A stretch of 64,000 bases of DNA from Patescibacteria group bacterium (lineage in GTDB: Bacteria; Patescibacteriota; Patescibacteriia; JBAZBY01): NCBI GenBank assembly GCA_041671225.1, contig JBAZBY010000001.1:430940-494939 (forward strand), in the 5' to 3' direction. Below the pieces are notes generated by a model. The model was not told the DNA's origin, did not search any database, and saw only the letters and a program-made list of their open reading frames with translations. Of this stretch, positions 6,139 to 50,489 are shown piece after piece; position 1 is the stretch's first letter, and each line of letters begins with the position of its first letter. The translations under genes were made by a program, and so were the position numbers.

Positions 6139-9100
6139 GTGATATTTTTTGTAAAAATCAAAAAAATGAATTGGGCAGCAATGTTTAGACACCTTAAGGA
6201 GCAGCGCGACGCTTGCCTTGCGCGGGCTCAGGCAGGCGGACTATTTGTTAAGGCAATAGGATATATTGCCTGTTTTGTGTTGGACATTGTGCTTGTGTTC
6301 GCGCTCATTCCTTTTTCAATAACCGCATCGCCAACCGCTAGCTTTCAACGCGTTGCACGCTTTTCACCGGATAAAGGATTCATTGATTCATATGACAAGC
6401 ATTTAAAGTATTACCGCGCATCCGTCGGTACGGCATTACTTGCAGGTGTTGGCGTTTCTTTGCAGATCATTTTTGCGCTCGCAACGTTCGGCATTCTTTC
6501 TTTCAGTAATCCAACGCAGGTTAACGCTGTTGATGGACGGATGCTCGCCTTTTGGGATGCCAGCGGCCCAGTACCAGCTGGATGGAGCTGTCAGTCCTGC
6601 GGTTCAGGAGATTTCTACCAGAAGTTCCCCCGTGGCGCTGCAACATATGGCGGAACAGGCGGCGGTACAACGCATACCCATGCCATGTCATATCTTTCAA
6701 TGTCCGGAACCATCAGCAGCCCTCTTTCATTGATTGGTGGTGCGGTAGTACAAGCATCGAAATTGCACACGCATACCTATATCTACGACCAAACAATGAA
6801 TGCGGGAACGTCATTGCCTCCATATCGGGATATGGAGGTCATCCGATATGACACCACCGGCGCTCCTGCCACTATTCCTGCCGGGGTCATTTTAATGTTT
6901 GATGCTGCACCCTCAGGATCATGGACCAGGTATACCGATCAGGACGGAAGTTTCATTTATGGAGAAAATGACGTCACAGGAACTGGCGGCTCAGAAACCC
7001 ATAATCATACCAATGTTGGGTATACTGTTGATGCATCCGCCGGTAATGCAGGTATTGAACTTGGCGATGGTCTGGGCGCCGGTTCTTTTGATGCACACAC
7101 CCATACCGTATCCGGAGCAACGACAAATACCGTATCTACGTTGCCGCCATATCTTGATGTGTTGCTGTATAAAGCAACAGGAGAAACCGCACTTCCTGAC
7201 GGCGCCATTGCCATGTGGGATGATACGCCAGCGGATGCTGCTTGGACCGTGAACTCTGGAGCAAGCCAGCTATTCAATGAAAAATTCCTTCGCGGCAATT
7301 CCAGCTACACCGGCATTGCTGCAGGCTCCGCAACACACGGACACTCGAATCTTGCCAGTGTGACCAGTGGTCCTTCCGGCGGGGCAAACAATGCGGGTTC
7401 TGGGACAAAGTCGGGGGCGAGTTATTCTCATACACATTCCATTTCAGTCACCATCGGCGCGGCAACGAATTATCTGCCGCCGTACCGCGATGTCATCATT
7501 GCACAGTACTCGACGGACATCACTATCTCCGGCACGATTCGTCAGTCGAACGAAAGTACGGCCTACGACTGTTCGGCGAACAACTTGACAGTCAACGTGA
7601 GCGTCAATGGTGGCGCGAACTCGACCGCAACATGCACGGCAGCTGATGGGTCGTTCTCCGTAAGTGCATCGCAACCATCCTCCGCGGGTGACCCAATCGT
7701 TGTCTCGGTCGATAGTGGTGAGTCGGTGCAAGCGACGACCGTTACGCTCGCGGCAGACACGACGTCCGCCATCACCGATCTCGACCTGTACGAAAATCGA
7801 CTCATCGTCCGCCACGAGGATGCGGGCCCGATAACGAACGCGAAGCTCGCAACAGGGGATAACGGCGACGCGGGAATCCGCTACGGCGTTGCGTCGAGCA
7901 ACCTCACCGTGGATAACAATATTGAACTGCACGTCTGGACCGGTGATACATTCATCCCCGGTGGTATAGTGACGACGCAGGGTTCGGCGGATTTTCATAT
8001 TGACGATAGCGCGACTGCGACACTTGCGACGACGGGCAATACCATCGCGGGAGATGCGGTGGTCGACACCGGAGCAACACTGAACCTTAACGCGAACACA
8101 ACCATCGACGGTGGAGCCATCGCCACTGCCGGCACTGGGACGGTTGCAACGAGCGGGACACCAACCGTCACCTTGCACGGGACGGGAAGCATTGGCGGTG
8201 GGAGCGGGGCAATCGCTTTCTATAACCTCACCATCGGAGACGCATCGGCAGCCGCGACGACGATGGATAGTGACGTCAGCATTGCGAACGTCCTCAACGT
8301 CGACACGAGTGACAGTATGACGATTGCCGCAAGTAAGACCGTGACGCTCGGCGCGAGCGCCACCGTCACGCTGAACGGCTCCATCCTCGGTGACGGCCGC
8401 TTGATCTATGCGAATATCAGTACCACATTCCCAACGAGCGGCATCATCTCCTCCGTGCTGCGTTTCGACAGCAGCAGTGGCAATATCACGATTCCTGCGC
8501 GCACGTACGGCGGCGACGTTGAGCTATATAGCAATTCAGGGACGATCCGCATAGCGCCGATCGGCACTGCGCCCGGGCAGACCATTACAATCGGTGGCGA
8601 CTACATCATCATTGCAGACGGCACCGCAGATATATATTCCAACAATTTGACCTACGCCCCGATAATGTTGATTACCGGCGGCATCGACTTCACGGGTATT
8701 GGGAGCGGCACAGAGCGTATTGAGGGCGGGACGAGCAACTGGACGATTACCGGCGGCATCGACTTCACAGGTGGCAGCTGCGGATGTACCACGTCGGACT
8801 TCACGTTCAATGGGGGCGGGACACTGAACTTCGCATCTAACACGGTCGATGACCTCACCATCACAGGAACATACACCGTCACCTCGGGGAGTCTCGCAGG
8901 AGTGAACGGGACGCTCGATCTCACCGGAAGTACGACAACGCTGACGAACACCACCATCTGGATGAGGGGATCTACTGGCACCATCATCGGCGCGGGCAAT
9001 GCGTTCAGCACGCTGTCCATCGGCAACGGCTCGGACATCATCACCGTTGCTGATTCGGATTTTTCCGTGACGGCGAATTTAAATATATTGTTTGCGACGG

Positions 9101-12100
9101 ATACTCTCTCTATTGGTGCTGGGCGAACCGTGACACTTTCAGGAACGCTGACTATGCCTGGGACCATTTCCGGTGAGGGGCGGCTGACATATCAGAATGC
9201 TGCCGCATTCCCGACCACCGGGACGATATCCTCCATCCTGCGCTTTGACGCGACGAACAACGACCAGACGATGAGCACCCGGGTGTATTCCGGTGCGGTG
9301 GAGATCGTGAACTCCTCGGATGCCGCGGCACGAACCGTGACCATGAGCGCTGGTGACACATACTTCCTGAGCGATCTGACGCTTGCAGCGAACGGAACGC
9401 AGAATGTGACGCTGAATGCTGCGACGAACAGCGCCACTCCATCCGTTGGGGGCAATATTGATTTCAATGGTACAGGAGCAGGGACGGAGATCATTGTGAG
9501 TGGTGCTCAGCAGTGGGTTGTTACAGGCGACGTCGATTTCACCGGAGGGACGTACACTGCGAGTGCTGGGAACACCTTCGCTATGGATGGTATTGGGAAG
9601 GTACTCACTTCAGCTGGCACGACCTTCCAGCATTTCGCGCCATACGGTGACATCACCCTCGCCGATGCGCTGGTGGTTGCCGGGGACGTGACTGCCGCAG
9701 GGAACTTTGACGCCGCGGGCAAAGCGATCACTGTGAGCGGGAGCTGGGATGGTAGCGCCGGTGCATTCACTCCTAATGGTAACATCGTCACATTTGATGC
9801 GACTGCTGCAGGTAAGACCATCATCACCGGTGGCTCGTCGTTCTACGATGTTGATTTCAACAGTGCGAGCGGCGGGTGGACCGTGCAGACCGATGACATG
9901 GTGACGCATGACCTCACACTGACTGACGCAGCGAGTTTCACGCTTGAAAGCGGCCGCACGCTCACCGTGCAAGGCAACTTCACCAACAGCGTCCCGAGCA
10001 CAACAACCTGGACCGGCACCACGTTGTATTTGAACGGCAGCGGTGGGTTGCAGACCATCAACACCAAGGGCAGCGGTGACACGTACGCGACACTGCGGAT
10101 CGGCGCGAGCGAAGACATTGCGATGTGGGATTCCAGCGCCGGGACAGTGACCACTGACGCCGGCGGTTGTCTGCTCTCGCAAGATGATGCAGGGACGGCC
10201 GGACGCCTGAACATCTACGGCACCTGTAACTCACGTGCGAACGAGTATTGGGCGTATGCGACGGATTTTGACGGGACGGCGCTCGGCGGCGCATCGCGGC
10301 AGGCAGACGTGCGCTTTGCAGACGGCGCGAGCTTCACCGTGGATGCAGGGGACACGCTCCAGGTTCTTGGCCAGAGCGCGAGCGCAAACCGCACGGCCAT
10401 TACACGGCAAAGCACTGGCAATTATGGCGTGAGCGTTGACGGAACGCTGTCCGCGCAGTATTACGATTTTGATTATTTGAATGCAAGCGGACTGAACATC
10501 ACATCCACAGCAACCGTGAGCGAACTTTCCGACGGGAGTTATGACAACAATGCTGCCGGCGCTTCGTCCGCCTATATAACGGTTACCGGTAACACATCAG
10601 CCACCACCTTCACCAATATCGTTTTTGATTCTGCTGGCGACGGCGCTGATGCGAACGTCGTCTATAACGTGAACGCTGACGGCAGCGGCATTGACTGGAC
10701 CTTTCTTGCAGCAGCAGGAAATAAGAACGGCGAAAGCTTTGACCGCGAGGTCAATGGCGCCAGCGTTGTGTGGACGGAAATATTCACCGCAGTGAATGAC
10801 GGCCTGACTGGCGATGCTGACTTTTCCAATGACACTGACACCCTTTCTGCCAATTGGGCCATGGATGATGAGACCGGCATCGACCACTACGAATATGCCT
10901 TTGGCACAACCCAAGGCGGAACCGATGTCGTGAACTTTACGAATGCAGGGCTTGCCACGGTTGCAACGGAAAACAACCTTGCGTTGGTGGATGGCACAAC
11001 GTATTACGCGACCATCCGTGCGATCAACGCCGGGGACGACGTGATGGAAGAAGCATCCAGTAATGGCGTGGTGGTGGACACGGCAGCTGCAACATTCTCC
11101 AATATTCAAGATTCCGCAACCACAACAACCATCACCATCACCTGGGACAGCTCAGAAGGGACCACAACCCAGGTTCGTTATGGAATCACGGCCGGGTATG
11201 GCAGTGCAACGATAGCAGACCCCGCTTTGCTCACCGAGCACAGCGCGACCATCAGCGGGCTCAATGAAGACACCACATATCATTACCAGTTGGTCGGCGT
11301 TGACCGCGCAGGCAATGAAACAACATCTGCAGACCGCACCATTGTAACAGATGGCCTTGACCCCACGGTCATCACCAACACGCAATCCACTGTACTTTCA
11401 TCCACATCGGTTCTCATCACGTGGGACACCAACCACCTTGCGGACTCCAAGGTGCGGTATGGGCTCACCACCGCATACGGCCTTGAGGAATACGATGCGA
11501 CGCTCGTTACCAGCCACTCCATGACGCTCACCGGGCTTGAACCCGGAGTGCAGTATCATTACGAAGTGCTTTCCGTGGGCAATACCAGCACGAACGATGC
11601 CGATGCGACATTCATCACCGATGCAGAAGAACCAGAACCAGAGCCTGAACCAGAGGATGAACTGACTCCAGTTGAAAATGTTGAACTCAATGGCGAGGCA
11701 GCACAAACCGGAGATGATTTCAATCTCATCTTTATTCCCAAATCAGGAACTCTTATCTTTATCGGTACCGCAGAGTCGAATGCAACCGTTCGCATTCGTC
11801 TTGATGGATTCTACACGGCCAGCACCACATCAGATGCAGATGGAAATTGGGAGATCATCATCAGCGTAAAAAGCACTCCATTGGAATTTGGCGAACACAT
11901 TGCTGAAGCCCGTGTGCTGAAGAACGGACACAGCACGTCATACGAGCGCATTGCGGAATTCCAGTTGACGTCGGAGCGGTACCTCGCCTCCCCGACTATT
12001 CTTTCACCCGAAGAAGATGAGATTGTTATCTCACTGCGACCCCTTATTACCGGGCTCGCAGAATCAGGCAGCATCATTCATTTCTATATTGATAACGTCT

Positions 12101-12831
12101 TTGTTGGTTCCACAACCACAACGCAGCATGCGTCAGGCACGGGCAGCTTTGCCTTCACGCCGACAGAGGAACTCACTGGCGTCCAGCATACGCTGTATGC
12201 GGTTGCCGTTAGCGGCGACAGCGCCTCCAGAAATTCACCGGATGTGCATTTTACCGTAGAGCTGCCCTTCATCGGCATCACGTTCCTGGATGCATACCTT
12301 GTACAGGCACTGCCGGAACCATATATCGCCTTTGAAGGCATCGGCGCAGGCGGATCGCGCGTCGACTTTTATCTGAACGATGAATTCCTGGATCGCATCG
12401 GCTTGCTCAACGGGCATGATTCCGTGGAGCACTTCACATACAAACTGTATGCCAATAACCTAGTGCCAAAGGATTACACATTATATGCGATCGCATACGA
12501 TGATAGTGGCAAGTCTTCACGAAAATCGAACGTGGTGAGTTTCACCAAGTCCAGTGATGTTGCCGCGTCGATATTAGTGACCAGTCTGGGTAGCGCACCA
12601 GTCCCCGCAACGCCTTCTCCGCAGCCGATATCCCTGCCAACGGTCATTGGAACCGGCCCGGGTGGAACATATACCGTACAGCGCGGAGACAGCTTATGGA
12701 GCATTGCAGAGGCACAGCTTGGCGACGGCTCTCGCTACGACGAAATAATCGCATTGAACCAAGATGCGCATCCGGAGCTGCTCATGGATTCGGGGAGTAT
12801 TTACAGCGGCTGGGTTCTGCGGCTGCCCTAG
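6139..12831 (+). CDS. giant (2230 aa) cell-surface protein: N-terminal TM anchor, phage-tail-collar-like repeats, repeated beta-helix-like modules, FN3 and Ig-like domains, C-terminal LysM
   Basis: Single ORF. Collar-like segments PAGWSCQSCGSGDFYQKFPRGAATYGGTGG and HTH...LPPYRDV repeats. FN3-like TWDSSEGTTTQVRYG and ITWDTNHLADSKVRYG. EPEPEPEPE linker. C-terminal LysM GTYTVQRGDSLWSIAEAQLGDGSRYDEIIALN. Track start 6139 is GTG; alternative ATG at 6166. Confidence 0.85.
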   Translation: MIFFVKIKKMNWAAMFRHLKEQRDACLARAQAGGLFVKAIGYIACFVLDIVLVFALIPFSITASPTASFQRVARFSPDKGFIDSYDKHLKYYRASVGTALLAGVGVSLQIIFALATFGILSFSNPTQVNAVDGRMLAFWDASGPVPAGWSCQSCGSGDFYQKFPRGAATYGGTGGGTTHTHAMSYLSMSGTISSPLSLIGGAVVQASKLHTHTYIYDQTMNAGTSLPPYRDMEVIRYDTTGAPATIPAGVILMFDAAPSGSWTRYTDQDGSFIYGENDVTGTGGSETHNHTNVGYTVDASAGNAGIELGDGLGAGSFDAHTHTVSGATTNTVSTLPPYLDVLLYKATGETALPDGAIAMWDDTPADAAWTVNSGASQLFNEKFLRGNSSYTGIAAGSATHGHSNLASVTSGPSGGANNAGSGTKSGASYSHTHSISVTIGAATNYLPPYRDVIIAQYSTDITISGTIRQSNESTAYDCSANNLTVNVSVNGGANSTATCTAADGSFSVSASQPSSAGDPIVVSVDSGESVQATTVTLAADTTSAITDLDLYENRLIVRHEDAGPITNAKLATGDNGDAGIRYGVASSNLTVDNNIELHVWTGDTFIPGGIVTTQGSADFHIDDSATATLATTGNTIAGDAVVDTGATLNLNANTTIDGGAIATAGTGTVATSGTPTVTLHGTGSIGGGSGAIAFYNLTIGDASAAATTMDSDVSIANVLNVDTSDSMTIAASKTVTLGASATVTLNGSILGDGRLIYANISTTFPTSGIISSVLRFDSSSGNITIPARTYGGDVELYSNSGTIRIAPIGTAPGQTITIGGDYIIIADGTADIYSNNLTYAPIMLITGGIDFTGIGSGTERIEGGTSNWTITGGIDFTGGSCGCTTSDFTFNGGGTLNFASNTVDDLTITGTYTVTSGSLAGVNGTLDLTGSTTTLTNTTIWMRGSTGTIIGAGNAFSTLSIGNGSDIITVADSDFSVTANLNILFATDTLSIGAGRTVTLSGTLTMPGTISGEGRLTYQNAAAFPTTGTISSILRFDATNNDQTMSTRVYSGAVEIVNSSDAAARTVTMSAGDTYFLSDLTLAANGTQNVTLNAATNSATPSVGGNIDFNGTGAGTEIIVSGAQQWVVTGDVDFTGGTYTASAGNTFAMDGIGKVLTSAGTTFQHFAPYGDITLADALVVAGDVTAAGNFDAAGKAITVSGSWDGSAGAFTPNGNIVTFDATAAGKTIITGGSSFYDVDFNSASGGWTVQTDDMVTHDLTLTDAASFTLESGRTLTVQGNFTNSVPSTTTWTGTTLYLNGSGGLQTINTKGSGDTYATLRIGASEDIAMWDSSAGTVTTDAGGCLLSQDDAGTAGRLNIYGTCNSRANEYWAYATDFDGTALGGASRQADVRFADGASFTVDAGDTLQVLGQSASANRTAITRQSTGNYGVSVDGTLSAQYYDFDYLNASGLNITSTATVSELSDGSYDNNAAGASSAYITVTGNTSATTFTNIVFDSAGDGADANVVYNVNADGSGIDWTFLAAAGNKNGESFDREVNGASVVWTEIFTAVNDGLTGDADFSNDTDTLSANWAMDDETGIDHYEYAFGTTQGGTDVVNFTNAGLATVATENNLALVDGTTYYATIRAINAGDDVMEEASSNGVVVDTAAATFSNIQDSATTTTITITWDSSEGTTTQVRYGITAGYGSATIADPALLTEHSATISGLNEDTTYHYQLVGVDRAGNETTSADRTIVTDGLDPTVITNTQSTVLSSTSVLITWDTNHLADSKVRYGLTTAYGLEEYDATLVTSHSMTLTGLEPGVQYHYEVLSVGNTSTNDADATFITDAEEPEPEPEPEDELTPVENVELNGEAAQTGDDFNLIFIPKSGTLIFIGTAESNATVRIRLDGFYTASTTSDADGNWEIIISVKSTPLEFGEHIAEARVLKNGHSTSYERIAEFQLTSERYLASPTILSPEEDEIVISLRPLITGLAESGSIIHFYIDNVFVGSTTTTQHASGTGSFAFTPTEELTGVQHTLYAVAVSGDSASRNSPDVHFTVELPFIGITFLDAYLVQALPEPYIAFEGIGAGGSRVDFYLNDEFLDRIGLLNGHDSVEHFTYKLYANNLVPKDYTLYAIAYDDSGKSSRKSNVVSFTKSSDVAASILVTSLGSAPVPATPSPQPISLPTVIGTGPGGTYTVQRGDSLWSIAEAQLGDGSRYDEIIALNQDAHPELLMDSGSIYSGWVLRLP

Positions 12832-12964: not shown

Positions 12965-13345
12965 ATGGGAAAAGAAAACGCAGAGACGATCATTGGTCCA
13001 TCAGTGCATGTGGAAGGGAACTTTCAAGGTGCTGGTGATATTGTCGTAGAGGGGAGTGTTGCTGGAACACTCAAGACCACGAGCAATGTACGTATTGGAG
13101 AGTCAGCAAAAGTGAAGGCTGATATCGAATGCGATACCATTTATGTTGCCGGTGAAGTTCGCGGCAACATCATTGCAAAAGGTCAGCTTGAAATTACGCA
13201 ATCCGGAAAAGTACAGGGCAACGTGGCGTGTACCGTGCTTTCAATTGCGCCGGGAGCAAAGCTCCATGGTAAGTGCGCGATGAACGGTAAGATGGATTCC
13301 AAAGAGGAGGCAGAAGAGCATGCAGACGACCGGAAGAGCGAATAG
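12965..13345 (+). CDS. bactofilin (DUF583) cytoskeletal polymer protein
   Basis: Beta-helical repeats VEGNFQGAGDIVVEGSVAGTLKTTSNVRIGESAKVKADIECDTIYVAGEVRGNI. ATG 12965 is preceded by GAGGAGG; the track start 12950 is TTG. Confidence 0.85.
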   Translation: MGKENAETIIGPSVHVEGNFQGAGDIVVEGSVAGTLKTTSNVRIGESAKVKADIECDTIYVAGEVRGNIIAKGQLEITQSGKVQGNVACTVLSIAPGAKLHGKCAMNGKMDSKEEAEEHADDRKSE

Positions 13346-14099
13346 CACCTACACGTACTTTTTTGATCAGTTTCTTCGCGAGAAGAAGTACGAAACAGAC
13401 GTGCATCGTATTGAGTCGCGCATTCTTGAGCTTGGCTTGAATGGGAAGATAGAGAAGCTCTCTGTACTCACCAGTGCGCGCGAGATGCTGAAGACTGCTA
13501 TTAGCCGTGGTGCGCAAACCATTGTGGCGGTGGGCAACGACCATACTTTGAGCAAGGTGGTGGACATTATTGCTGGTGAAAAAGTTATTTTAGGCTTTAT
13601 ACCCGTCGGCGATCCGCATGAGACAGCAGATATGCTTGGTATCCCAACAGGCGTCTCAGCCTGTGACGTCCTTTCGCACCGCATCATTATGGAGCTGGAT
13701 ATGGGGGAGGTGAATGACCTCCAACATTTCCTTTTTTCAGTAGAGATTCCGAGCAATTTAGTTGAGATCGAGTGTGACGGCAAGTACACCGTGCGCACAA
13801 AGGCAGAAGGAGGACAGTTTTCCATTCATAATTTTGGTTTGCCAGGCGGCCGCGTGCACAATCCCGCTGATGGGCTATTGGAAACAGTGATCACGAGGTC
13901 CAAGAAAGGAATGTTTTCACTCGGCAGTCGCCGGTTTGAAGAAGAAGGCGTGTTTCCCGTAAAGAAGGTGAAGGTCAGCTGCGCAGGTGATGCGCAAAAT
14001 CTTCTTTTGGATGGTACGACTATTGTGAAGACTCCTGCGACGGTGAAGATTTCTGCGAAGAAGCTCAAGATTATCGTGGGGAAAGGGAGACAGTTCTGA
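13320..14099 (+). CDS. DAGK_cat/NAD-kinase-fold lipid-kinase-like protein with degenerate GGDGT motif (GNDHT)
   Basis: 259 aa. AVGNDHTLSKVVD aligns to the GGDGT(L/V) loop of YegS/DgkA-type kinases. SD agaggagg. Overlaps the bactofilin gene by 26 nt. Confidence 0.5.
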   Translation: MQTTGRANSTYTYFFDQFLREKKYETDVHRIESRILELGLNGKIEKLSVLTSAREMLKTAISRGAQTIVAVGNDHTLSKVVDIIAGEKVILGFIPVGDPHETADMLGIPTGVSACDVLSHRIIMELDMGEVNDLQHFLFSVEIPSNLVEIECDGKYTVRTKAEGGQFSIHNFGLPGGRVHNPADGLLETVITRSKKGMFSLGSRRFEEEGVFPVKKVKVSCAGDAQNLLLDGTTIVKTPATVKISAKKLKIIVGKGRQF

Positions 14100-14147
14100 A
14101 GAAGGTTGTAGTGAGTAGGTGGTAGGGAGTTTTTTTATATTAAAAAC

Positions 14148-14176
14148 TTGCAATTTGGCCAAAAACGTGCTATACT
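14148..14176 (+). promoter_or_regulatory. sigma70-type promoter TTGCAA-17-TATACT driving the non-coding transcript
   Basis: cttgcaatttggccaaaaacgtgctatact. Confidence 0.55.
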
Positions 14177-14182
14177 ACTGCA

Positions 14183-14478
14183 AGCTCGATCGACAAACTA
14201 GTCCGTATGGCCAATACGGACACAACATGGCCATAATAACGCGACGGCGTTAGACAATTTCGAGCAAATTCTTATGGGATCGCTCGCACAAGCGATCTCG
14301 TGCACATCCACGTACGCCCAACCCCATAGGTTGAAGTACAGGATAACAATCGTACATTCCTATTCGGTTCATCGCTGCAATGCAGCTGAACTGATCGCCG
14401 TATACCGGCGCGCCGGCTAGTTCCCGGCAACACTTTAAGGCCCTAGGGGGCCATGACGTGCCCCTGCGGGCCTTTTTC
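14183..14478 (+). ncRNA. candidate ~295-nt structured non-coding RNA of unknown class, between its own promoter and terminator
   Basis: Stop codons in all frames. Several perfect hairpins (GTCCGTATggccaaATACGGAC; GATCGCTcgcacaAGCGATC; GCCGGCGCGCCGGC). Ends in a two-tier GC hairpin plus T-run. No tmRNA, RNase P or SRP signature motifs seen. Confidence 0.4.
14437..14478 (+). terminator. rho-independent terminator (AAGGCCC tag GGGGCcatgacgtGCCCC tgc GGGCCTT TTTTC)
   Basis: Nested GC stems followed by a T-tract, 65 nt upstream of infB. Confidence 0.7.
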
Positions 14479-14490
14479 TTACCCAAAATA

Positions 14491-14519
14491 TTGACGAAAA
14501 CGTTTATTTTCCGTATCCT
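14491..14519 (+). promoter_or_regulatory. putative infB promoter TTGACG-17-TATCCT
   Basis: ttgacgaaaacgtttattttccgtatcct. Confidence 0.4.
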
Positions 14520-14545
14520 TTGGTAGATTCACTGGGGTTTTATCT

Positions 14546-16381
14546 ATGGCCGAAGAAGAAGTACAAGAAAAAGAGATTAAGGGCGAGCCAATTGCCATCG
14601 GCAAAACGGTGGTGATTAAGGATTTAGCAGAAAAACTTGGTGTTGCGCCCACCAATGTGATTACCGAGCTCATGAAGAACGGCATTATGTCCGGTCAGAA
14701 TGAACGGATTGATTTTGATACTGCCACGATTATAGCCGCAGAGTTCCAACGGGAGGTTCTTCAAGAAGATGAAGACGCCGGTGAGCAGGCAGAAGGTATT
14801 GCAAAGCTTGAGGAAGAACTTGCAAGTCAGGAAAAAATGATCAAGCGCGCACCGGTCGTCGTTGTGATGGGCCACGTGGATCATGGTAAAACAAAGTTGC
14901 TTGATGCGATTCGCCAGACGGACGTTGTAGCAGGAGAAGCGGGCGGAATCACGCAGCACATTGGTGCGTACCAAGTGGTGAAAAAAAATCGCGAGCTCAC
15001 CTTTATTGATACACCAGGCCACGAAGCGTTTACCGCCATGCGGTCGCGCGGCGCGCGCGTCGCGGACATTGCGATTCTTGTGGTTGCCGCAGATGATGGG
15101 ATTCAACCGCAGACAAAAGAAGCGTTGCAAATTATTCAGAAGGCGGGGTTGCCGATGGTGGTTGCCATCAATAAAATCGACCGCGTAGAAGCGAATATCG
15201 ACCGCGTGAAAACGCAATTTGCTGAGTTGGGTATTCAGGCTGAGGATTGGGGCGGCAAGATCGTTATGGTGCCTATCTCTGCAAAAGAAGGTACGGGCAT
15301 CGATGACCTATTGGAAAATCTTTTATTGGTTGCTGATGTGGAAGAGAAGCGCATCATGGCAGATCCTACTCGCCGCGCCATTGGCACTATTATTGAATCA
15401 CACGTTGATGCTGGTGAAGGCGCTGCCGCGACCGTGCTTGTGCAGGCTGGTACGCTCCACGTGGGCGATAATATCATTGTTGGTAAGACTTTTGGTAAGG
15501 CGCGAACGCTCAAAGATTGGCGTGGCAAGCATGTGAAGGAAGCGCCACCATCTTTCCCTGTGCAGATTTTGGGTCTAAAAGGCAGCCCACAGGTTGGTGA
15601 TGTGCTTGAGGTTGCAGTGAATGATAAAGAGTTTCGCCGTATGCGAAAGCGTTCCGCGCAGGATCGCACTGTTCATCAAGATACTAAGGCAGCGCAAGAA
15701 GCAAATGCAAGCAGCATGACAGATGAAAATGGCGATAAGAAGGAAGATGGAAAGGAAATCGCTGAACTCAATATTGTCCTGAAGGCTGACACGCTTGGTT
15801 CTTTGGAAGCAATTGAAGCACAGATCAGCAAGCTTCATCATGATGATATTCACATCAAGCTCGTTGCCAAAGGACTTGGGAATATAACAGAAGCGGACGT
15901 GCTTCGCGCAGAAACAGCAAATGGTATTTTGTTGGGGTTCAACGTGCCGGCACAACAAGCAGCAGAGGATGTGGCGGGCGGTAAGCACATGGAGATCAAG
16001 ACTTTCAATATCATTTATGATCTCGTTGATGACGTGATTGCCCAGGCGGAATCGCGTCTTTCACCAGAAGTATTGGAAGATACACACGGAGAAATGACGG
16101 TCCTTGCGGTTTTCTTCACTAAAAAGAGGGAGCAGATTTTTGGTGGACGCATTACCAAGGGTACGATGAAGAATCCTTCTATGCTCAAGATCATGCGCGC
16201 TGGAGTAGAAGTGGCGCGCGGCAAACTCACTGAACTTGAATCAAATAAAGTGAAATCAAAGAGCGTTTCGGAAGGTTCTGAATGTGGCGTGAAGTATGAA
16301 GGTCCTGGCTTGGTGCAAGTGGGCGACATTGTACGATCCTACACACGCAAGGAGATTAAGAAAACACTCGAAGTACGCTAA
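14546..16381 (+). CDS. infB: translation initiation factor IF-2, short form (611 aa) lacking the long N-terminal domains
   Basis: G-domain [29 protein letters not shown]-terminal beta-barrel domains. Confidence 0.93.
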
Positions 16382-18429: not shown

Positions 18430-19548
18430 ATGAATAAAGGATTTGCTATCTTACCGGTGGTGTTTATTGTCGTTGCCGTCCTTCTTGGCGGCGTGGTTGG
18501 GTATGCAGTGTATTCTTTGCCTGGTCTCACGCAGAATGATGCAGCAGCACCAGCGCAGGTGATTGCCAATGGCAATACGAATACCGGCCTGCTCGGCGGA
18601 GATAGTGATGAACATGGGTGCATAGGGTCTGCGGGGTATTCGTGGTGCGAGGCAAAACAAAAGTGCTTACGTATTTGGGAAGAAGATTGCACAACTACGA
18701 CGAACACCAATACTACTACTGACCCAATCGCAGACTGGGAGACGTATATGAATACCGCCTTTGATTATTCTCTTCAGTACCCTACGAGCTGGGAAGCGCC
18801 TTCTGCCGATGCGGAGATTGCTGAATTTGGCGTAGGGGTAAGACAGCCTTTTTGGATCAAAAAAGTAGATACAATAAGCGAAACATTGGTTGTCCCTGGG
18901 AGCAACATGAAGATTATTATTGATGGAAATGAGGCAACTCAGCAGAAAGAGGGTGGAGAAAGCACATATGTAGTGACATATTTTTCACAAATGACTGGCT
19001 ATCTTCAAGTTGGTTATGATGAATCTCTCAGTGAAGGCAACGACGTTCTCTTGTCAATTGATTTTGATTCCACTGCCGACTGGGCGACATATACAAATAG
19101 CGATATGGGGTACCGTGTCCGTTACCCGGCCAATTGGACAATAACTGAAACCAATAAAACTTCAGAGATAACCACAGGTCAAACGGTTCAGTACGTCACG
19201 ATAGCAAACGCAACTGATACATACTCTCTCCATCTTGGAGTGAAAAGCACCAGCCAATCAAATATTGATATCTGGTATCGCACAGGAATCGGCGCGGGCG
19301 ATTTTGAAGCCGGTGAGTCGGTGGCGATGGCAGGTACAAGTATCCAAACGACAAAATTGGTCTATCAAGGAAAGACTGTTGAAGTGTTTTTCAATCCAGC
19401 GGATGCCTCACCCAGCCAGGTCGTTATCGGAACGCATGCCGTATCGGCTTACTTGCACAATAATTCAGAAAACAGCGCCGATATTTTAGGATCAGACGAA
19501 TATTCGGTTGCCAAAGACATTGTGGGTACATTGGAATTTACGGACTAA
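18430..19548 (+). CDS. paralog 1 of 4: N-terminal TM anchor (MNKGFAILPVVFIVVAVLLGG), 4-Cys module, two PsbP-like DWxTY-N...YP..W repeats
   Basis: 372 aa. HGCIGSAGYSWCEAKQKCLRIWEEDC; repeats DWETYMNTAFDYSLQYPTSWE and ADWATYTNSDMGYRVRYPANW. Confidence 0.7.
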   Translation: MNKGFAILPVVFIVVAVLLGGVVGYAVYSLPGLTQNDAAAPAQVIANGNTNTGLLGGDSDEHGCIGSAGYSWCEAKQKCLRIWEEDCTTTTNTNTTTDPIADWETYMNTAFDYSLQYPTSWEAPSADAEIAEFGVGVRQPFWIKKVDTISETLVVPGSNMKIIIDGNEATQQKEGGESTYVVTYFSQMTGYLQVGYDESLSEGNDVLLSIDFDSTADWATYTNSDMGYRVRYPANWTITETNKTSEITTGQTVQYVTIANATDTYSLHLGVKSTSQSNIDIWYRTGIGAGDFEAGESVAMAGTSIQTTKLVYQGKTVEVFFNPADASPSQVVIGTHAVSAYLHNNSENSADILGSDEYSVAKDIVGTLEFTD

Positions 19549-19558
19549 TACAAACACC

Positions 19559-20713
19559 ATGCTCCAACGCGGCATCGCTCTTCTTCCCATCCTTCTCATC
19601 ATCGGCGGCGTTGTATTGGCCGGCATTCTTGGATTTGTGATATGGCAACTGCCGAGCATGACCAACACCCAAACAACGAATACAGCAAATATCGTGGTCA
19701 ACACGAATGCTGTTGCTTGCACACAGGAAGCGAAGCTCTGCCCGGACGGTTCTGCTGTTGGCCGCACTGGGCCAAACTGCGAGTTCGCTGCATGCCCGGG
19801 GGAGACGAATACGAATATTTCTACCGCAGACTGGAAGACATATGCGAATAATGAATTTGATTTTACATTTCAGTATCCAAATTCCTGGATCGTCGAAAAT
19901 TGGAAAGATATTGGACAATTTGTCAATGGAGATGGAAGAACTTTTTCATTTATCTGGGATGAAATTATCATCCGCGAAGGAGATGTGCGGGAAAACACTA
20001 CTGGTAGCAGTGCGCTTAGTTTTGGGTTCACTGATATTTCGGCGGAGTTATTTATTGGACGGTATAATAGTGATGGTGATACCGCATCTCAGGTGATAGC
20101 GCCTGTATATATTGAAACCGTTGCGGGAAGAACTGTGAAGCATGTGACTGCAGAAACTGCAATTGGATTGCCACGTGAGTACCTGTTTTTTGCTCCGTAT
20201 TCCTCCGGTTTTATTATTTCTTACGATGATTTTGACAGTACACATAAACAAATTCTCTCTTCATTGACGTTTACGGAACAGGATCCAACCGCATGGTGGG
20301 GTACATATACAAATGAGCAATATGGATTTACATTGCGTTATCCATCTATGTTTAGTGTGTTTGAAGAATCAACCCTATTGAAAGGTGAGCAGGAATATCC
20401 ATCTATTGTCTTTGCACCAAGCAATGACCTTGGGGTTTTCTCAATAACAATATATCCGCGAAAAAGTAATGAAACCGGACTTGCTGCATATTTGAGCGCT
20501 GTGCCGACCGATCTTCATGCGTCAGAACAGACAAGTGTGTCTGTTGGCGGCGCTGAGGGTATTAGGATTGATCCTGTTCCAGGATTGGCACCAGCAAAGG
20601 CAGTTTTTCTTGCCAAGGACAATTTCGCGTTTGAGTTAAATACAAGCAGTAGACCTGGACTTACTGATGAGGAATATAATAGCATCCTCTCTACCTTCCA
20701 ATTCACAAATTAG
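19559..20713 (+). CDS. paralog 2 of 4: pilin-like N-terminus MLQRGIALLPILLIIGGVVLAGILGF, 4-Cys module VACTQEAKLCPDGSAVGRTGPNCEFAACPGE, PsbP-like repeats
   Basis: Track ORF 19508 trimmed to the Met after the stop of paralog 1. Repeats ADWKTYANNEFDFTFQYPNSW and AWWGTYTNEQYGFTLRYPSMF. Confidence 0.7.
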   Translation: MLQRGIALLPILLIIGGVVLAGILGFVIWQLPSMTNTQTTNTANIVVNTNAVACTQEAKLCPDGSAVGRTGPNCEFAACPGETNTNISTADWKTYANNEFDFTFQYPNSWIVENWKDIGQFVNGDGRTFSFIWDEIIIREGDVRENTTGSSALSFGFTDISAELFIGRYNSDGDTASQVIAPVYIETVAGRTVKHVTAETAIGLPREYLFFAPYSSGFIISYDDFDSTHKQILSSLTFTEQDPTAWWGTYTNEQYGFTLRYPSMFSVFEESTLLKGEQEYPSIVFAPSNDLGVFSITIYPRKSNETGLAAYLSAVPTDLHASEQTSVSVGGAEGIRIDPVPGLAPAKAVFLAKDNFAFELNTSSRPGLTDEEYNSILSTFQFTN

Positions 20714-20716
20714 GGT

Positions 20717-22054
20717 ATGACCCAACGCGGATTCGCTTTTCTTCCCATCCTTCTCATCATCGGCGGCGTTGTATTGGTCGGCATTCTTGGATTTGTGATA
20801 TGGCAACTGCCGAGCATGACCAACACCGGAAACACGAACACGGTGAATGTTGTGGTCAATGCGAATACTGTCGCCTGCACGGAAGAAGCAAAGCTCTGCC
20901 CGGACGGTTCTGCTGTTGGCCGCACCGGGCCAAACTGCGAGTTCGCTGCATGCCCGGGGGAGAATACCAATACCTCTGTTGATCTGACGGCCGATTGGGA
21001 AACATATACGAATGATACTTATGGGTATTCGATTCGATATCCAAAAGGGTGGGTATATGATGCTATGTTTCTTGAATCCGTGGTTTTTAATTCCGAATCT
21101 ACTGGTCAATGGAGGCTTTCAATCGATATGGAACCAACCGCGAGATCTGTGCAGGAAAATATTGATACTCCGATCCACAATAGCCTAGGAGAAGCCACGC
21201 ATCTTCAAGGAGATGAATGGGAAAGAAGCGCTCGCACCATCGATGGGCAACAAGCAATACGAATAGTTGTCCGTGAACTCCATCCTGGTGACTATGGGGA
21301 TACAAAAACACTGGTCGTCAATGACGGCTTCCTTTATACCTTAAGCCAAGGAACAGGTTCAGATCCTATTGAATCGGCCATGGTCGATAGTTTGAGATTT
21401 ACATCCCGCAAGACAATCGCAGATTGGAAGACATATACGAATGACGAATTCGGTTTTTCATTCAAATATCCTGCTGATTATCAACTTGAAACAGGCTCCG
21501 GCGATGTTCAACTCATTGCTCGCTCGTTCCACCCGCAAGGGCTCTTAGCCTTTGGAGTGTGGCGCGGAGAACAAGAGGACTGTGAGTGCGAGCTCATTAC
21601 GTATAATGGAAAAACCATCACCGTAGGTGATTCCCAATATAATGATTCATGGGAAACGGATTATATGTGGTCCACCTTCCAATTCACGGACGTCACGACC
21701 ACTCAAGCAACAGATGATGACTCTGTATCATTAAGTCCGGAGGATCAGCAAGCGCTGGAATCAGTCGCGTTTGCAGTGGTAGATCAAAAAACCAGTGGGC
21801 AATGGGATAAGAGAATAGATGTTGGGCGCGTAGATGCATCGCAAAATGCGGTTGTAGGGTACTGGTGGGCGCGCGACCGCTGGCAATGGATCGCTTGGAG
21901 ACAAGCAGGAGGCGATTGGAATATTCTGGTAAGTCTGGACGGATTTGATTGTACAGAATTAGAAAGTCTCCCAACGCAATATGAGAGTTTTTTCCATAAC
22001 GTCATATATATATCGTCTGGCGAAAAGTATTGCTTTTCACACACATCTCGCTAA
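20717..22054 (+). CDS. paralog 3 of 4: N-terminus MTQRGFAFLPILLIIGGVVLVGILGF, same 4-Cys module, PsbP-like repeats, 445 aa
   Basis: 5' ~110 nt and the Cys-module coding stretch are nearly identical at nucleotide level to paralog 2. Confidence 0.7.
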   Translation: MTQRGFAFLPILLIIGGVVLVGILGFVIWQLPSMTNTGNTNTVNVVVNANTVACTEEAKLCPDGSAVGRTGPNCEFAACPGENTNTSVDLTADWETYTNDTYGYSIRYPKGWVYDAMFLESVVFNSESTGQWRLSIDMEPTARSVQENIDTPIHNSLGEATHLQGDEWERSARTIDGQQAIRIVVRELHPGDYGDTKTLVVNDGFLYTLSQGTGSDPIESAMVDSLRFTSRKTIADWKTYTNDEFGFSFKYPADYQLETGSGDVQLIARSFHPQGLLAFGVWRGEQEDCECELITYNGKTITVGDSQYNDSWETDYMWSTFQFTDVTTTQATDDDSVSLSPEDQQALESVAFAVVDQKTSGQWDKRIDVGRVDASQNAVVGYWWARDRWQWIAWRQAGGDWNILVSLDGFDCTELESLPTQYESFFHNVIYISSGEKYCFSHTSR

Positions 22055-24339: not shown

Positions 24340-24365
24340 CATGGTATACTCATAGAGGAGGATCT

Positions 24366-24704
24366 ATGAACCGTGCAGAGCTTGCAGAAAAGATCGCCGA
24401 GAAGATCGGCATCACTAAAAAGCAGGCAGAAGATGTACTGCGTTCTTTTGAGTCCCACACAATCAAAGCCTTGCAGCAGGGTCAAGAAGTGACGCTTGCG
24501 GGTTTTGGTACCTTTTCAGCGCGTGTGCGAAAAGAACGCGGCGGCGTGAATCCCCGCAATCCAAAAGAGCGTATTCAGATCCCAACCGTAACGGTACCAA
24601 AGTTCAAAGCAGGCAAGAACCTGAAGGATGAGCTGAAGTCCGGCAAAGCAGGATCCGCAGGAAAGAGCGAGGATCAGGACGTGCTGCCGGTTGAAGAGGC
24701 ATAA
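24366..24704 (+). CDS. hup: HU/IHF-family nucleoid DNA-binding protein
   Basis: RAELAEKIAEKIGITKKQAEDVL...LAGFGTFSARVRKERGGVNPRNPKERIQIP; SD agaggagg. Confidence 0.9.
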   Translation: MNRAELAEKIAEKIGITKKQAEDVLRSFESHTIKALQQGQEVTLAGFGTFSARVRKERGGVNPRNPKERIQIPTVTVPKFKAGKNLKDELKSGKAGSAGKSEDQDVLPVEEA

Positions 24705-24727: not shown

Positions 24728-24913
24728 ATGATGGATGTGAATATTCATAAGCGCGGCGGCGGAGACGCTGTCTATGGGCTCGGTTTTATTGGCGCTGCCA
24801 TTTATTATATTTCTGTGGCTACCGGTTTTTGGGTCGGTGTTTTGGGTGTTCTCAAAGCGATCATTTGGCCCATCTTTTTTGTCTACGAGGCGTTGAAGTT
24901 TTTTGCGCAATAA
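24728..24913 (+). CDS. 61-aa small membrane protein; its last 15 codons lie inside the 88-bp direct repeat
   Basis: MMDVNIHKRGGGDAVYGLGFIGAAIYYISVATGFWVGVLGVLKAIIWPIFFVYEALKFFAQ with two hydrophobic helices. Confidence 0.5.
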   Translation: MMDVNIHKRGGGDAVYGLGFIGAAIYYISVATGFWVGVLGVLKAIIWPIFFVYEALKFFAQ

Positions 24914-50254: not shown

Positions 50255-50489
50255 ACGTCCAACACGGATTTCGGCCTTCGTCCCGCCGAGCGGGACTCCG
50301 CCCTCAATCACGTGTTCTCCTCTTCCCCATAAACGTGTGCTCGACCTCGCTTACGGTACTCACTCGCTACACTCATTCGTACCTACTCGGTCTGCGCACC
50401 CCGTTCATGGGGGCCCCAGGGATTAGGGGAGTTAAATGCCAAACGATTCTAGTGCAATTGTAACATGAAGTCAATGCTATACTAGAAAT

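What the first reader, a model, noticed from the sequence alone, without database searches (positions are those of the whole stretch)
14148..14478. Promoter- and terminator-bounded ~295-nt structured non-coding transcript candidate immediately upstream of infB
A near-consensus promoter (TTGCAA-17-TATACT) and a strong two-tier terminator delimit a region with stop codons in every frame and multiple perfect hairpins (GTCCGTAT/ATACGGAC, GATCGCT/AGCGATC, GCCGGCGCGCCGGC). I could not match it to tmRNA (no tRNA-like end or CCA), RNase P RNA (no AGGAAAGUCCGGGC P4 motif), SRP RNA or 6S consensus by eye. It may be a novel sRNA, a 6S-like RNA, or a large cis-regulatory leader of the infB operon.
Basis: seen in the sequence. 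Interest (0 to 1): 0.55.

Follow-up and report, generated by a model that had tools for sequence, protein, structure and literature searches.

The report
Orphan structured RNA gene before infB
A roughly 295-base, heavily folded non-coding RNA gene with its own promoter and terminator sits just upstream of the translation-factor gene infB in a small-genome Patescibacteria (CPR) bacterium; it is conserved with compensatory base-pair changes in two related metagenomic genomes, matches no known RNA family, and its function is unknown.

Summary
Window 14148-14478 (+) holds a promoter with an extended -10 (TTGCAA-17-TGcTATACT), about 295 nt with stops in all three frames of the + strand, and a two-tier GC-rich terminator. 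The sequence folds far better than shuffles (z = -6.2).

Two syntenic relatives (IF2 72% and 68% identical) carry a homologous element with the same promoter, hairpin series and terminator. The helices keep pairing through 14 to 19 double-sided changes, and essentially none are broken.

Neither this copy nor the two homologues matches any Rfam 15 family, even at E <= 10. ARAGORN finds no tRNA or tmRNA there, and no ORF is conserved.

infB has its own conserved promoter between the terminator and its start codon. The RNA is therefore most likely an independent, strongly expressed ncRNA gene rather than a plain leader.

More distant relatives have protein genes in this slot and no RNA, so the family looks clade-restricted.

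Function is not established. My best guess is a trans-acting RNA that uses a conserved, accessible pyrimidine-rich stretch (AAUCGUnCnUUCC). The main rival is a protein-dependent attenuator feeding read-through into infB, as in the E. coli metY/rimP-leader layout. Only three independent sequences are available.

The parts
14148..14176 (+). Promoter of the RNA gene: -35 TTGCAA (14148-14153), 17-nt spacer, extended -10 TGcTATACT (14168-14176). The predicted start is about 14183.
   Evidence: Found by the scan. The hexamers are conserved and the spacer is not in L081 and L082. TGNTATACT is enriched 6 against 0.78 expected, with no copy inside a confident coding region, and one copy sits ahead of the HU gene.
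14184..14265 (+). 5' multi-branch domain closed by helix P1 (GCUCGA 14184-14189 with UCGAGC 14260-14265). It contains H1 and H2.
   Evidence: Present in the MFE of all three homologues. P1 is sequence-invariant.
14201..14221 (+). H1: 8-bp hairpin GUCCGUAU-GGCCA-AUACGGAC. The palindromic loop UGGCCA could pair with AUGGCCAU at 14227-14234, as a possible pseudoknot or alternative fold.
   Evidence: L081 has GUCUGCUU-GGCCA-AAGCAGAC, which is 3 double-sided changes with none broken. H1 is absent in L082. The window MFE prefers the alternative UAUGGCCA/UGGCCAUA pairing.
14237..14252 (+). H2: 6-bp hairpin with a conserved GACG loop (UAACGC-GACG-GCGUUA).
   Evidence: L081 has GUCUAC-GACG-GUAGAC and L082 has GUUGCC-GACG-GGCAGC. 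Five of 6 pairs change on both sides and all stay paired (manual register).
14275..14300 (+). P2: 10-bp hairpin (GGGAUCGCU.../...AGCGAUCUC). A hairpin occupies this position in all three homologues, but the sequences cannot be aligned.
14319..14333 (+). H5: small hairpin CAACC-CCAUA-GGUUG. L081 has GCUCU-GAAA-AGAGC nearby; L082 has none. Positional homology is uncertain.
14348..14365 (+). Conserved single-stranded pyrimidine-rich motif AAUCGUaCaUUCCuAUUC, proposed as the interaction site.
   Evidence: Conserved in all three homologues. Predicted unpaired probability is 0.70-0.80 against 0.41-0.45 for the whole RNA.
14364..14394 (+). H6: bipartite hairpin UCGGUUCA..GCUGC-AAU-GCAGC-UGAACUGA.
   Evidence: The base UC(G/A)G...CUGA is conserved and the inner pairs covary. 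It contains a G-U pair that would be a mismatch on the other strand.
14396..14410 (+). H7: hairpin CGCCG-UAUAC-CGGCG.
   Evidence: L081 has CCCCGCA-CACAU-UGCGGGG and L082 has CGCCUC-UCUGCAC-GAGGCG, giving 2 double-sided changes.
14412..14428 (+). H8: sequence-invariant 5-bp stem GCCGG/CCGGC with the 7-nt loop CUAGUUC.
   Evidence: The stem is identical in all three homologues, and the loop is CUUGUUC (L081) or CUUUCC (L082). The loop is predicted unpaired at 0.86-1.0.
14437..14477 (+). Two-tier intrinsic terminator: outer stem GGCCC/GGGCC, inner stem GGGGGC/GCCCCU, 2x2 internal loops, then U5 (14473-14477).
   Evidence: dG is -25.3 kcal/mol, and -27.6 and -39.3 in the homologues. The outer stem is invariant and the inner stem has 2 double-sided changes.
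14491..14519 (+). Separate promoter of infB (TTGACG-17-TATCCT), between the terminator and the infB start codon at 14546.
   Evidence: Found by the scan. Conserved as TTGACC-17-TATCCT in L081 and TTGACC-17-TACACT in L082. A similar box precedes the MBL-infB pair in L083.
14546..16381 (+). infB (IF2, 611 aa), followed by rbfA, a DHH/DHHA1 gene and clpP. This is context, not part of the RNA.
   Evidence: Pfam.

Best explanation
This is a separate gene for a stable, highly structured non-coding RNA of about 295 nt (window about 14183-14478, + strand). It belongs to a previously uncatalogued family restricted, as far as the data reach, to a narrow clade of Patescibacteria.

Shown. It has its own strong promoter with an extended -10 and its own intrinsic terminator. 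The fold is a 5' multi-branch domain (P1 enclosing H1 and the GACG-loop hairpin H2), a variable middle hairpin, a conserved accessible single-stranded stretch AAUCGUnCnUUCC(n)AUUYC, then three hairpins (H6, H7 and the invariant H8) and the terminator hairpin. The helices are maintained by compensatory substitutions.

Inferred. The RNA acts in trans. The conserved unpaired pyrimidine-rich stretch, and possibly the invariant H8 loop, would be the contact surface for a purine-rich RNA partner such as a ribosome-binding region, or for a protein. The hairpins would give stability and shape.

Its position at the head of the infB-rbfA cluster, followed by an internal promoter, mirrors the E. coli layout in which a stable RNA gene (metY), terminators and an internal promoter precede rimP-nusA-infB. 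Some read-through into infB may therefore add a cis component.

I put about 0.6 on 'independent structured ncRNA gene' and only about 0.25 on the specific base-pairing or protein-contact mechanism.
For: Thermodynamics: z = -6.2 in the window, -7.1 in L081 and -6.1 in L082.

Homologues sit at the syntenic position in L081 and L082. A covariance model built from the window alone finds them at 96.5 bits (E 8e-32) and 41.2 bits (E 1e-12), and finds nothing else in 154 kb of related loci.

Pair counts on the model-fitted alignment: 98.7% of cells paired against 89.3% in shuffles; 14 pairs changed on both sides against 5.9 +/- 1.8 (0 of 500 shuffles); at most 1 when the partners are slid. My manual register gives 47 homologous pairs, of which 32 are invariant, 1 changes on one side, 14 change on both sides and 0 are broken. 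It includes H2, with 5 of 6 pairs covarying under a conserved GACG loop. RNAalifold independently recovers P1, H1, H6, H7, H8 and the terminator.

Strand: the G-U pairs, the promoter and the terminator all point to the + strand.

Promoter class: shared with the HU gene and, in L082, with clpP.

Separate conserved infB promoter. No conserved ORF. The conserved motif is predicted accessible.

Layout analogue: E. coli metY-t1/t2-P2-rimP-nusA-infB (PMC6511841).
Against: Only three independent sequences exist, so covariation cannot be tested with proper statistics, and the fitted alignment leans towards the model.

There is no expression data.

No partner was found. The seed region shows no consistent complementarity to the start regions of the shared neighbouring genes. 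In the 64-kb window its best duplex is no better than that of shuffled seeds, and there is no near-perfect complement.

The middle third (P2 to H5) cannot be aligned with confidence.

P1, H8 and the outer terminator stem are invariant, so they give no covariation evidence.

The family was not found beyond the three genomes in the metagenome, virus, phage or plasmid searches.
Confidence: 0.6

Rival explanations
1. Cis-acting leader or attenuator of infB. Transcription from the strong upstream promoter runs through the structured region, and the sequence-invariant terminator is read through in a regulated way into infB-rbfA. A termination or antitermination protein such as NusA, or IF2 itself, would control this, as proposed for the rimP-leader of rimP-nusA-infB operons.
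For: The element is always immediately upstream of infB, about 68 nt from terminator to start codon, in the three genomes that have it. The terminator stems are almost invariant in sequence while other stems covary. This is the same argument used for the protein-dependent rimP-leader, whose hallmark is a GGGc...gCCC hairpin plus U-run with no antiterminator (PMC2965389). The inner stem here is GGGGC...GCCCC. E. coli infB expression is controlled by terminators upstream in the operon and by NusA (PMC6511841).
Against: A conserved -35/-10 pair lies between the terminator and infB in all three genomes, so infB does not need the upstream promoter. No alternative antiterminator pairing was seen. 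About 250 nt of conserved structure is far more than a protein-dependent attenuator needs. Relatives with the same bactofilin-DAGK-...-infB-rbfA order (L083, L207) have no such element. rimP and nusA are not at this locus. No rimP-leader hit appears in the Rfam scan. GGGC/GCCC stems are generic in GC-rich terminators.
Confidence: 0.2
2. A very divergent copy of a universal housekeeping RNA (6S, tmRNA, RNase P RNA or SRP RNA) that the standard models miss in this deep-branching lineage.
For: The size, strong promoter, strong terminator and high structure are typical of housekeeping RNAs. CPR lineages are divergent. The 64-kb window contains none of these RNAs.
Against: There is no hit to any of these Rfam families even at E <= 10 with lax filters, for three divergent homologues. 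ARAGORN finds no tmRNA. There is no 5'-3' closing stem or rod, so it is not 6S-like, and the ends do not pair as in the P1 helix of RNase P RNA. The element is absent from the same locus in relatives at 54% IF2 identity. The window is only 6% of the genome, so the standard RNAs are probably elsewhere.
Confidence: 0.04
3. No RNA function. The region is a conserved intergenic spacer rich in palindromes (DNA-level protein-binding sites or remnants of a degraded gene), with a fortuitous promoter-like box and the terminator of the upstream gene.
For: Several invariant elements (GCTCGA/TCGAGC, GCCGG/CCGGC, CCGGCGCGCCGG) are DNA palindromes. There is no expression evidence. Only three genomes are available.
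Against: Double-sided substitutions that keep pairing in H1, H2, H6, H7 and the inner terminator stem, with none broken, are not expected of DNA sites or decaying sequence. G-U pairs mean the structure works on one strand only. The upstream NUDIX gene in L081 has its own hairpin plus T-run before the RNA promoter (read from the sequence). The promoter hexamers are conserved and the spacer is not.
Confidence: 0.06
4. A small-protein gene, for example the 48-codon ATG ORF at 14274-14420.
For: That ORF exists. Some frames of the L081 and L082 copies are open over long stretches.
Against: The ATG and the frame are not conserved. The window has stops in every frame. The substitutions preserve base pairs, not codons. 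There is no SD.
Confidence: 0.02

Closest known systems
E. coli metY-(t1,t2)-P2-rimP-nusA-infB-rbfA operon head (PMC6511841)
   Same: A stable structured RNA gene with its own strong promoter(s) sits at the head of the cluster that contains infB and rbfA. It is followed by intrinsic terminator(s) and then an internal promoter for the protein genes.
   Different: There the RNA is an initiator tRNA, and here no tRNA-like element is detected. rimP and nusA are not at this locus. Co-transcription and processing are shown in E. coli and are unknown here.
rimP-leader attenuator (Naville & Gautheret 2010, PMC2965389)
   Same: A sequence-conserved G-rich/C-rich terminator hairpin (GGGc...gCCC) with a U-run lies within 4-130 nt of the first gene of the infB-containing operon, with no visible antiterminator. 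The inner stem here is GGGGC...GCCCC, 68 nt before infB.
   Different: The rimP-leader is a short single hairpin directly before rimP. Here the hairpin is two-tiered, ends a structured RNA of about 250 nt, is followed by a conserved promoter, and the downstream gene is infB without rimP or nusA. The Rfam scan returned no such match.
Base-pairing sRNAs with C/U-rich accessible seeds and an intrinsic terminator (such as RsaE/RoxS and RNAIII; from general knowledge)
   Same: Own promoter, intrinsic terminator, several stable hairpins, and a conserved unpaired pyrimidine-rich stretch that could pair with purine-rich ribosome-binding regions.
   Different: No sequence or structure homology. It is longer than most sRNAs. 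No target was found. The seed is in a linker rather than in hairpin loops.
6S RNA / Ms1 (RNA-polymerase-binding RNAs)
   Same: Abundant-type promoter. The size is similar to Ms1 (about 300 nt, from memory).
   Different: There is no rod-like fold, no closing stem, no central bubble, and no Rfam match.
Orphan structured ncRNAs found by comparative genomics (raiA, ROOL, OLE and the Weinberg/Breaker motif sets)
   Same: A conserved multi-hairpin RNA of unknown function, recognised only by covariation and intergenic location.
   Different: It is not homologous to any of them (Rfam 15 scan). It has a much narrower distribution, with only three sequences so far.

Membership tests
Any Rfam 15 family (4227 covariance models) | Score at or above the family's gathering threshold, or at least a suggestive E-value | tested here: not met
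   In the whole window at gathering score only 7 tRNAs are found, all elsewhere. At E <= 10 the region and both homologues give only noise, such as TCL6, CRISPR-DR, XIST and RsmY on the wrong strand, at 10-16 bits.
tmRNA | tRNA-like domain (acceptor stem, T-arm, CCA end) plus a tag reading frame | tested here: not met
   ARAGORN finds no tmRNA in the window. H8 has a 5-bp stem and a 7-nt loop, but the loop CUAGUUC does not fit the T-loop consensus (read from the sequence).
6S RNA | Rod-like fold with paired 5' and 3' ends and a large central bubble | tested here: not met
   The MFE and centroid folds of all three homologues are strings of local hairpins with no closing stem. No Rfam 6S hit.
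RNase P RNA / SRP RNA | Conserved core (P4 and CR-I to CR-V; domain IV loops) recognised by the family models | tested here: not met
   No hit at E <= 10 for three homologues.
rimP-leader attenuator | Short terminator hairpin with GGGc...gCCC and a U-run in the 5' UTR of the rimP-nusA-infB operon | tested here: inconclusive
   The inner terminator stem GGGGC...GCCCC with U5 lies 68 nt before infB. However, rimP and nusA are absent from the locus, a promoter intervenes, and the motif is generic for GC-rich terminators. There is no Rfam match (I recall a rimP family in Rfam, from memory).
Riboswitch / T-box / ribosomal-protein leader | Sensor domain directly coupled to an expression platform (terminator/antiterminator or RBS sequestration) of the downstream gene, on one transcript | tested here: not met
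   No antiterminator alternative was seen. A conserved promoter separates the terminator from infB. The conserved 5' junction is about 170 nt from the terminator. No Rfam match.
Trans-acting base-pairing sRNA (functional class, not a homology family) | Own promoter and intrinsic terminator | tested here: met
Trans-acting base-pairing sRNA (functional class, not a homology family) | Conserved, accessible seed region | tested here: met
   AAUCGUnCnUUCC is conserved in all three homologues and predicted 70-80% unpaired.
Trans-acting base-pairing sRNA (functional class, not a homology family) | Conserved complementary target(s) | tested here: inconclusive
   None was found among shared neighbouring genes or in the 64-kb window. 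Only 6% of the genome could be searched.
Structured ncRNA (general) | Helices supported by compensatory substitutions across homologues | tested here: met
   Fourteen double-sided changes on the fitted alignment against 5.9 in shuffles and at most 1 when slid. H2 in the manual register has 5 of 6 pairs covarying. Caveat: there are only 3 sequences.

The most novel reading that the evidence does not exclude
A new family of abundant, stable structured RNA specific to a Patescibacteria clade, retained in a 1-Mb genome and placed at the head of the infB-rbfA translation/ribosome-assembly cluster. It would be functionally tied to translation initiation or ribosome biogenesis, for example as an RNP component or a regulator acting on ribosome-binding regions. 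The stable-RNA-first layout of the E. coli metY operon would then be echoed with a non-tRNA RNA.
Probability: 0.3. Interest if true: 0.6.

Novelty: new member of a known kind. Interest (0 to 1): 0.42.

Why it matters
CPR/Patescibacteria genomes are tiny and poorly understood, and almost nothing is known about their regulatory or structural RNAs. A 300-nt RNA that keeps a complex fold by compensatory change, is driven by the same promoter type as the HU gene, and sits next to infB-rbfA is a concrete, testable candidate for a lineage-specific RNA function. It also shows that standard annotation leaves such genes invisible in these genomes. The value is limited by the narrow distribution (three genomes) and by the lack of any functional clue beyond position and a conserved accessible motif.

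Tried and rejected
1. Rfam at gathering score and at E <= 10, on the window region and both homologues: nothing.

2. ARAGORN: no tRNA or tmRNA here.

3. GTDB species genomes via IF2. The best relative is only 49% identical, and there is no sequence similarity to the RNA in 80 loci.

4. Metagenome scan with CGCCGGCTN{3,7}CCGGCN{32,62}CGGGCCTTTT. It returned 120 loci and none is homologous. Eighty-five of them are the 3' end of an HU gene plus its terminator from a human-gut bacterium. A pattern including the AAUCGUnCnUUCC block would have been better.

5. Two scans of viral contigs, and blastn against phages and plasmids: nothing.

6. Protein searches with the DAGK-like neighbour and the IF2 N-terminus to find more clade members. 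They yielded only a 1.4-kb contig that ends before the RNA, plus the window's own genome.

7. More distant syntenic relatives L083 and L207 have an MBL-fold gene (plus a 68-aa ORF in L083) in the slot, and no covariance-model hit.

8. Small-ORF reading: rejected.

9. Target search by duplex energy against neighbouring start regions and all large ORFs of the window: no signal above shuffled seeds.

10. Long-range pseudoknots (H8 loop with J1; H1 loop with the downstream UGGCCA) were inspected by eye. The first is not conserved. The second is present in the window and in a bulged form in L081, and both partners are absent in L082. That is suggestive only.

11. MAFFT alignments of the whole RNA or of its halves were structurally wrong in the variable parts. 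I therefore used a covariance-model alignment and a manual helix register.

Full report
**What is in the sequence.**
The interval between a DAGK-family gene (13320-14099) and infB (14546-16381) is 446 nt. The scan finds TTGCAA-17-TATACT at 14148-14176 with a TG extension.

From about 14183 the + strand folds into a dense set of hairpins. The MFE is -115.4 kcal/mol against -83.8 +/- 5.1 for dinucleotide shuffles (z = -6.2, 0 of 200 as good). The reverse strand gives z = -4.2.

The 3' end is a two-tier GC-rich hairpin followed by UUUUU at 14437-14477, with dG -25.3 kcal/mol. The simple terminator scan missed it because of its internal loops.

All three frames of the + strand carry stops. The exception is the 'GCCGGCGCGCCGGC' element, which is a loop-less palindrome (CCGGCGCGCCGG). 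Comparison shows it is the 3' strand of one hairpin next to the 5' strand of the next.

**Not a known RNA.**
Rfam 15 at gathering score finds only seven tRNAs elsewhere in the window. A permissive scan at E <= 10 of 14000-14650 gives one meaningless hit outside the element. The same scan on the two homologues gives only noise at 10-16 bits. ARAGORN finds no tRNA or tmRNA. There is no similarity in phage or plasmid collections.

**Organism and relatives.**
The best IF2 match among GTDB species genomes is 49% identical, and the hits are Patescibacteria/Parcubacteria. The neighbouring DAGK-like protein is 100% identical to an NCBI MAG protein from 'Patescibacteria group bacterium', on a 1,028,488-bp contig. 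Locus L206 from an ENA assembly is identical to the window over 6.8 kb.

Only two other assemblies are close. L081 has IF2 72% and DAGK 80% identical. L082 has IF2 68% and DAGK 64% identical. Both keep the order giant protein - bactofilin - DAGK - (NUDIX in L081) - gap of about 500 nt - infB - rbfA - DHH - clpP.

**The element is conserved as an RNA.**
Alignment of the gaps shows several shared features:
- the promoter, CTTGAAATT ... TGCTATACTA, with a non-conserved 17-nt spacer;
- the first helix, AGCUCGA ... UCGAGC;
- the block AAUCGUnCnUUCC;
- GCGCCGGCU(U/A)GUUCCCGGC;
- the terminator.

All three copies fold much better than shuffles (z = -7.1 and -6.1 for the homologues) and have the same layout.

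A covariance model built from the window sequence alone, with my curated structure, finds L081 at 96.5 bits (E 8e-32) and L082 at 41.2 bits (E 1e-12). It finds nothing else in 154 kb of related loci.

On the model-fitted three-sequence alignment, 98.7% of cells are standard pairs against 89.3 +/- 2.1% after shuffling the partners. Fourteen pairs change on both sides against 5.9 +/- 1.8 (0 of 500 shuffles reach this). Sliding the partners by 1-3 columns leaves at most 1.

That alignment failed to align hairpin H2. In my manual register, anchored on its invariant GACG loop, the stems are UAACGC/GCGUUA, GUCUAC/GUAGAC and GUUGCC/GGCAGC. Five of the 6 pairs change on both sides and all stay paired.

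Over the helices whose register is unambiguous I count 47 pairs. Of these, 32 are invariant, 1 changes on one side (G-U to A-U), 14 change on both sides, and none is broken. RNAalifold on the fitted alignment independently recovers P1, H1, H6, H7, H8 and the terminator. The G-U pairs (H6 and the inner terminator stem in the window, H2 in L082) would be mismatches on the other strand.

There are caveats. Only three independent sequences exist, the alignment is partly fitted to the structure, and the middle region (P2 to H5) cannot be aligned. P1, H8 and the outer terminator stem are invariant and so say nothing about structure.

**Independent gene or leader?**
The promoter is credible for two reasons. 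Its hexamers are conserved and its spacer is not. The extended -10 TGNTATACT occurs six times in the window against 0.78 expected (0 of 100 shuffles reach 6). No copy lies inside a confident coding region, and one is just upstream of the SD of the HU gene at 24366-24704. The same box precedes clpP in L082.

Between the terminator and infB lies a second promoter-like pair, TTGACG-17-TATCCT at 14491-14519. It is conserved with the same spacing in L081 and L082. infB therefore has its own promoter.

More distant relatives with the same gene order (L083 with IF2 54%; L207 with DAGK 47%) carry an MBL-fold gene in this slot, plus a 68-codon ORF with an SD in L083. They give no covariance-model hit.

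I found no antiterminator alternative. Together these points favour a separate ncRNA gene in a variable slot over a dedicated infB leader.

**Why the cis reading is not dead.**
The terminator stems are nearly invariant in sequence while other stems covary. Naville and Gautheret used the same argument for the rimP-leader, a GGGc...gCCC hairpin plus U-run 4-130 nt before the rimP-nusA-infB operon. It has no antiterminator, and they proposed that it is protein (NusA) dependent (PMC2965389). The inner stem here is GGGGC...GCCCC, 68 nt before infB.

In E. coli the operon starts with a stable RNA gene (metY, an initiator tRNA). Terminators t1 and t2 and the internal promoter P2 follow, and NusA modulates termination (PMC6511841). 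The layout here, with strong promoter, stable RNA, terminator, internal promoter and then infB-rbfA, is the same with a non-tRNA RNA. I treat this as an architectural analogy, not as membership. rimP and nusA are not at this locus. GGGC/GCCC stems are common in GC-rich terminators. Rfam gives no match.

**Mechanism.**
The one conserved segment that is not in a helix is AAUCGUaCaUUCCuAUUC (14348-14365). Its predicted unpaired probability is 0.70-0.80 in all three RNAs, against 0.41-0.45 for the whole molecules. The invariant H8 loop is also exposed. This is the anatomy of a seed or protein-binding site.

I could not find a partner. Duplex energies against the start regions of the shared neighbouring genes are inconsistent between genomes. 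The best duplex among 47 start regions in the window (-14.0 kcal/mol) is no better than shuffled seeds give (60% of shuffled seeds give a minimum at least as low). There is no near-perfect complement in the window. The window is only 6% of the genome.

I therefore commit to 'independent, trans-acting structured ncRNA that uses the exposed pyrimidine-rich stretch' as the most likely reading. My confidence in the gene is about 0.6. My confidence in the mechanism is low, about 0.25.

**Other rivals.**
A divergent housekeeping RNA is unlikely. No model hits for any of the three homologues, there is no closing stem, and the element is absent from relatives. A small protein is rejected because no start codon or frame is conserved. 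A purely DNA-level palindromic spacer does not explain strand-specific compensatory changes.

**Searches that failed to extend the family.**
- The single metagenome pattern scan returned 120 loci and none is homologous. Most are an HU gene end plus terminator from a gut bacterium.
- Scans of viral contigs were empty of homologues.
- Extra protein searches added no usable contig.
- The literature searches found no description of such an RNA in Patescibacteria.

**Verdict.**
This is a real, conserved, structured RNA element with its own promoter and terminator. It is not in Rfam and is restricted, so far, to three related Patescibacteria genomes. It is a new orphan ncRNA family of ordinary kind rather than a new type of system. 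It is of moderate interest, mainly because of the organism and the position next to infB-rbfA.

Noticed in passing
window 14168, 24342, 35498(-), 41583(-), 50475, 60547: The extended -10 box TGNTATACT is strongly enriched (6 copies against 0.78 expected) and appears always to lie in front of genes. It looks like the strong-promoter signature of this lineage. The copy at 50475-50483 ends only 7 nt before the ATG of ORF 50490-51494, which suggests a leaderless mRNA.
   Followed up: partly
window 24342-24704: An HU-family DNA-binding protein gene (112 aa) with TGGTATACT, a GGAGG Shine-Dalgarno and an ATG within 25 nt. It was not in my first ORF list because it is under 150 aa. A 61-aa hydrophobic ORF (24728-24913) follows it.
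   Followed up: partly
L083 3978-4184; L207 1460-2074; L081 2690-3106: The slot between the DAGK-like gene and the infB promoter is variable among relatives. L083 has a 68-codon ORF with an SD and terminator plus an MBL-fold gene. L207 has an MBL-fold gene. L081 has a NUDIX gene plus the RNA. The window and L082 have the RNA alone.
   Followed up: partly
L085-L204 (e.g. L088 minus strand): Eighty-five of the 120 metagenome pattern hits are one 85-nt sequence from human-gut assemblies. It is the C-terminal coding end of an HU gene (...APAFKPGKAFKDSVQ*) plus its terminator. It matched my GC-rich pattern by coincidence and is unrelated to the finding.
   Followed up: yes
window 6139-12831 and 51853-60522: Two giant ORFs (2230 and 2889 aa). 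The first carries faint or weak fn3, Pur_ac_phosph_N and LysM hits in the precomputed annotation of its identical copy. It is conserved upstream of the bactofilin gene in the relatives.
   Followed up: no
window 18430-22054: Three consecutive ORFs (372, 401 and 445 aa) each give weak PsbP_2-like hits. This looks like a tandem paralogue family downstream of clpP. In L082 the RNase Y gene follows clpP directly.
   Followed up: no
window 14201-14234: The H1 loop UGGCCA is palindromic and is repeated as AUGGCCAU 7 nt after the hairpin. The window MFE prefers the alternative UAUGGCCA/UGGCCAUA pairing over H1. L081 has a bulged equivalent (UUGG-AU-CCAA) and L082 lacks both partners. It could be a pseudoknot, a conformational switch or a dimerisation loop.
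   Followed up: partly
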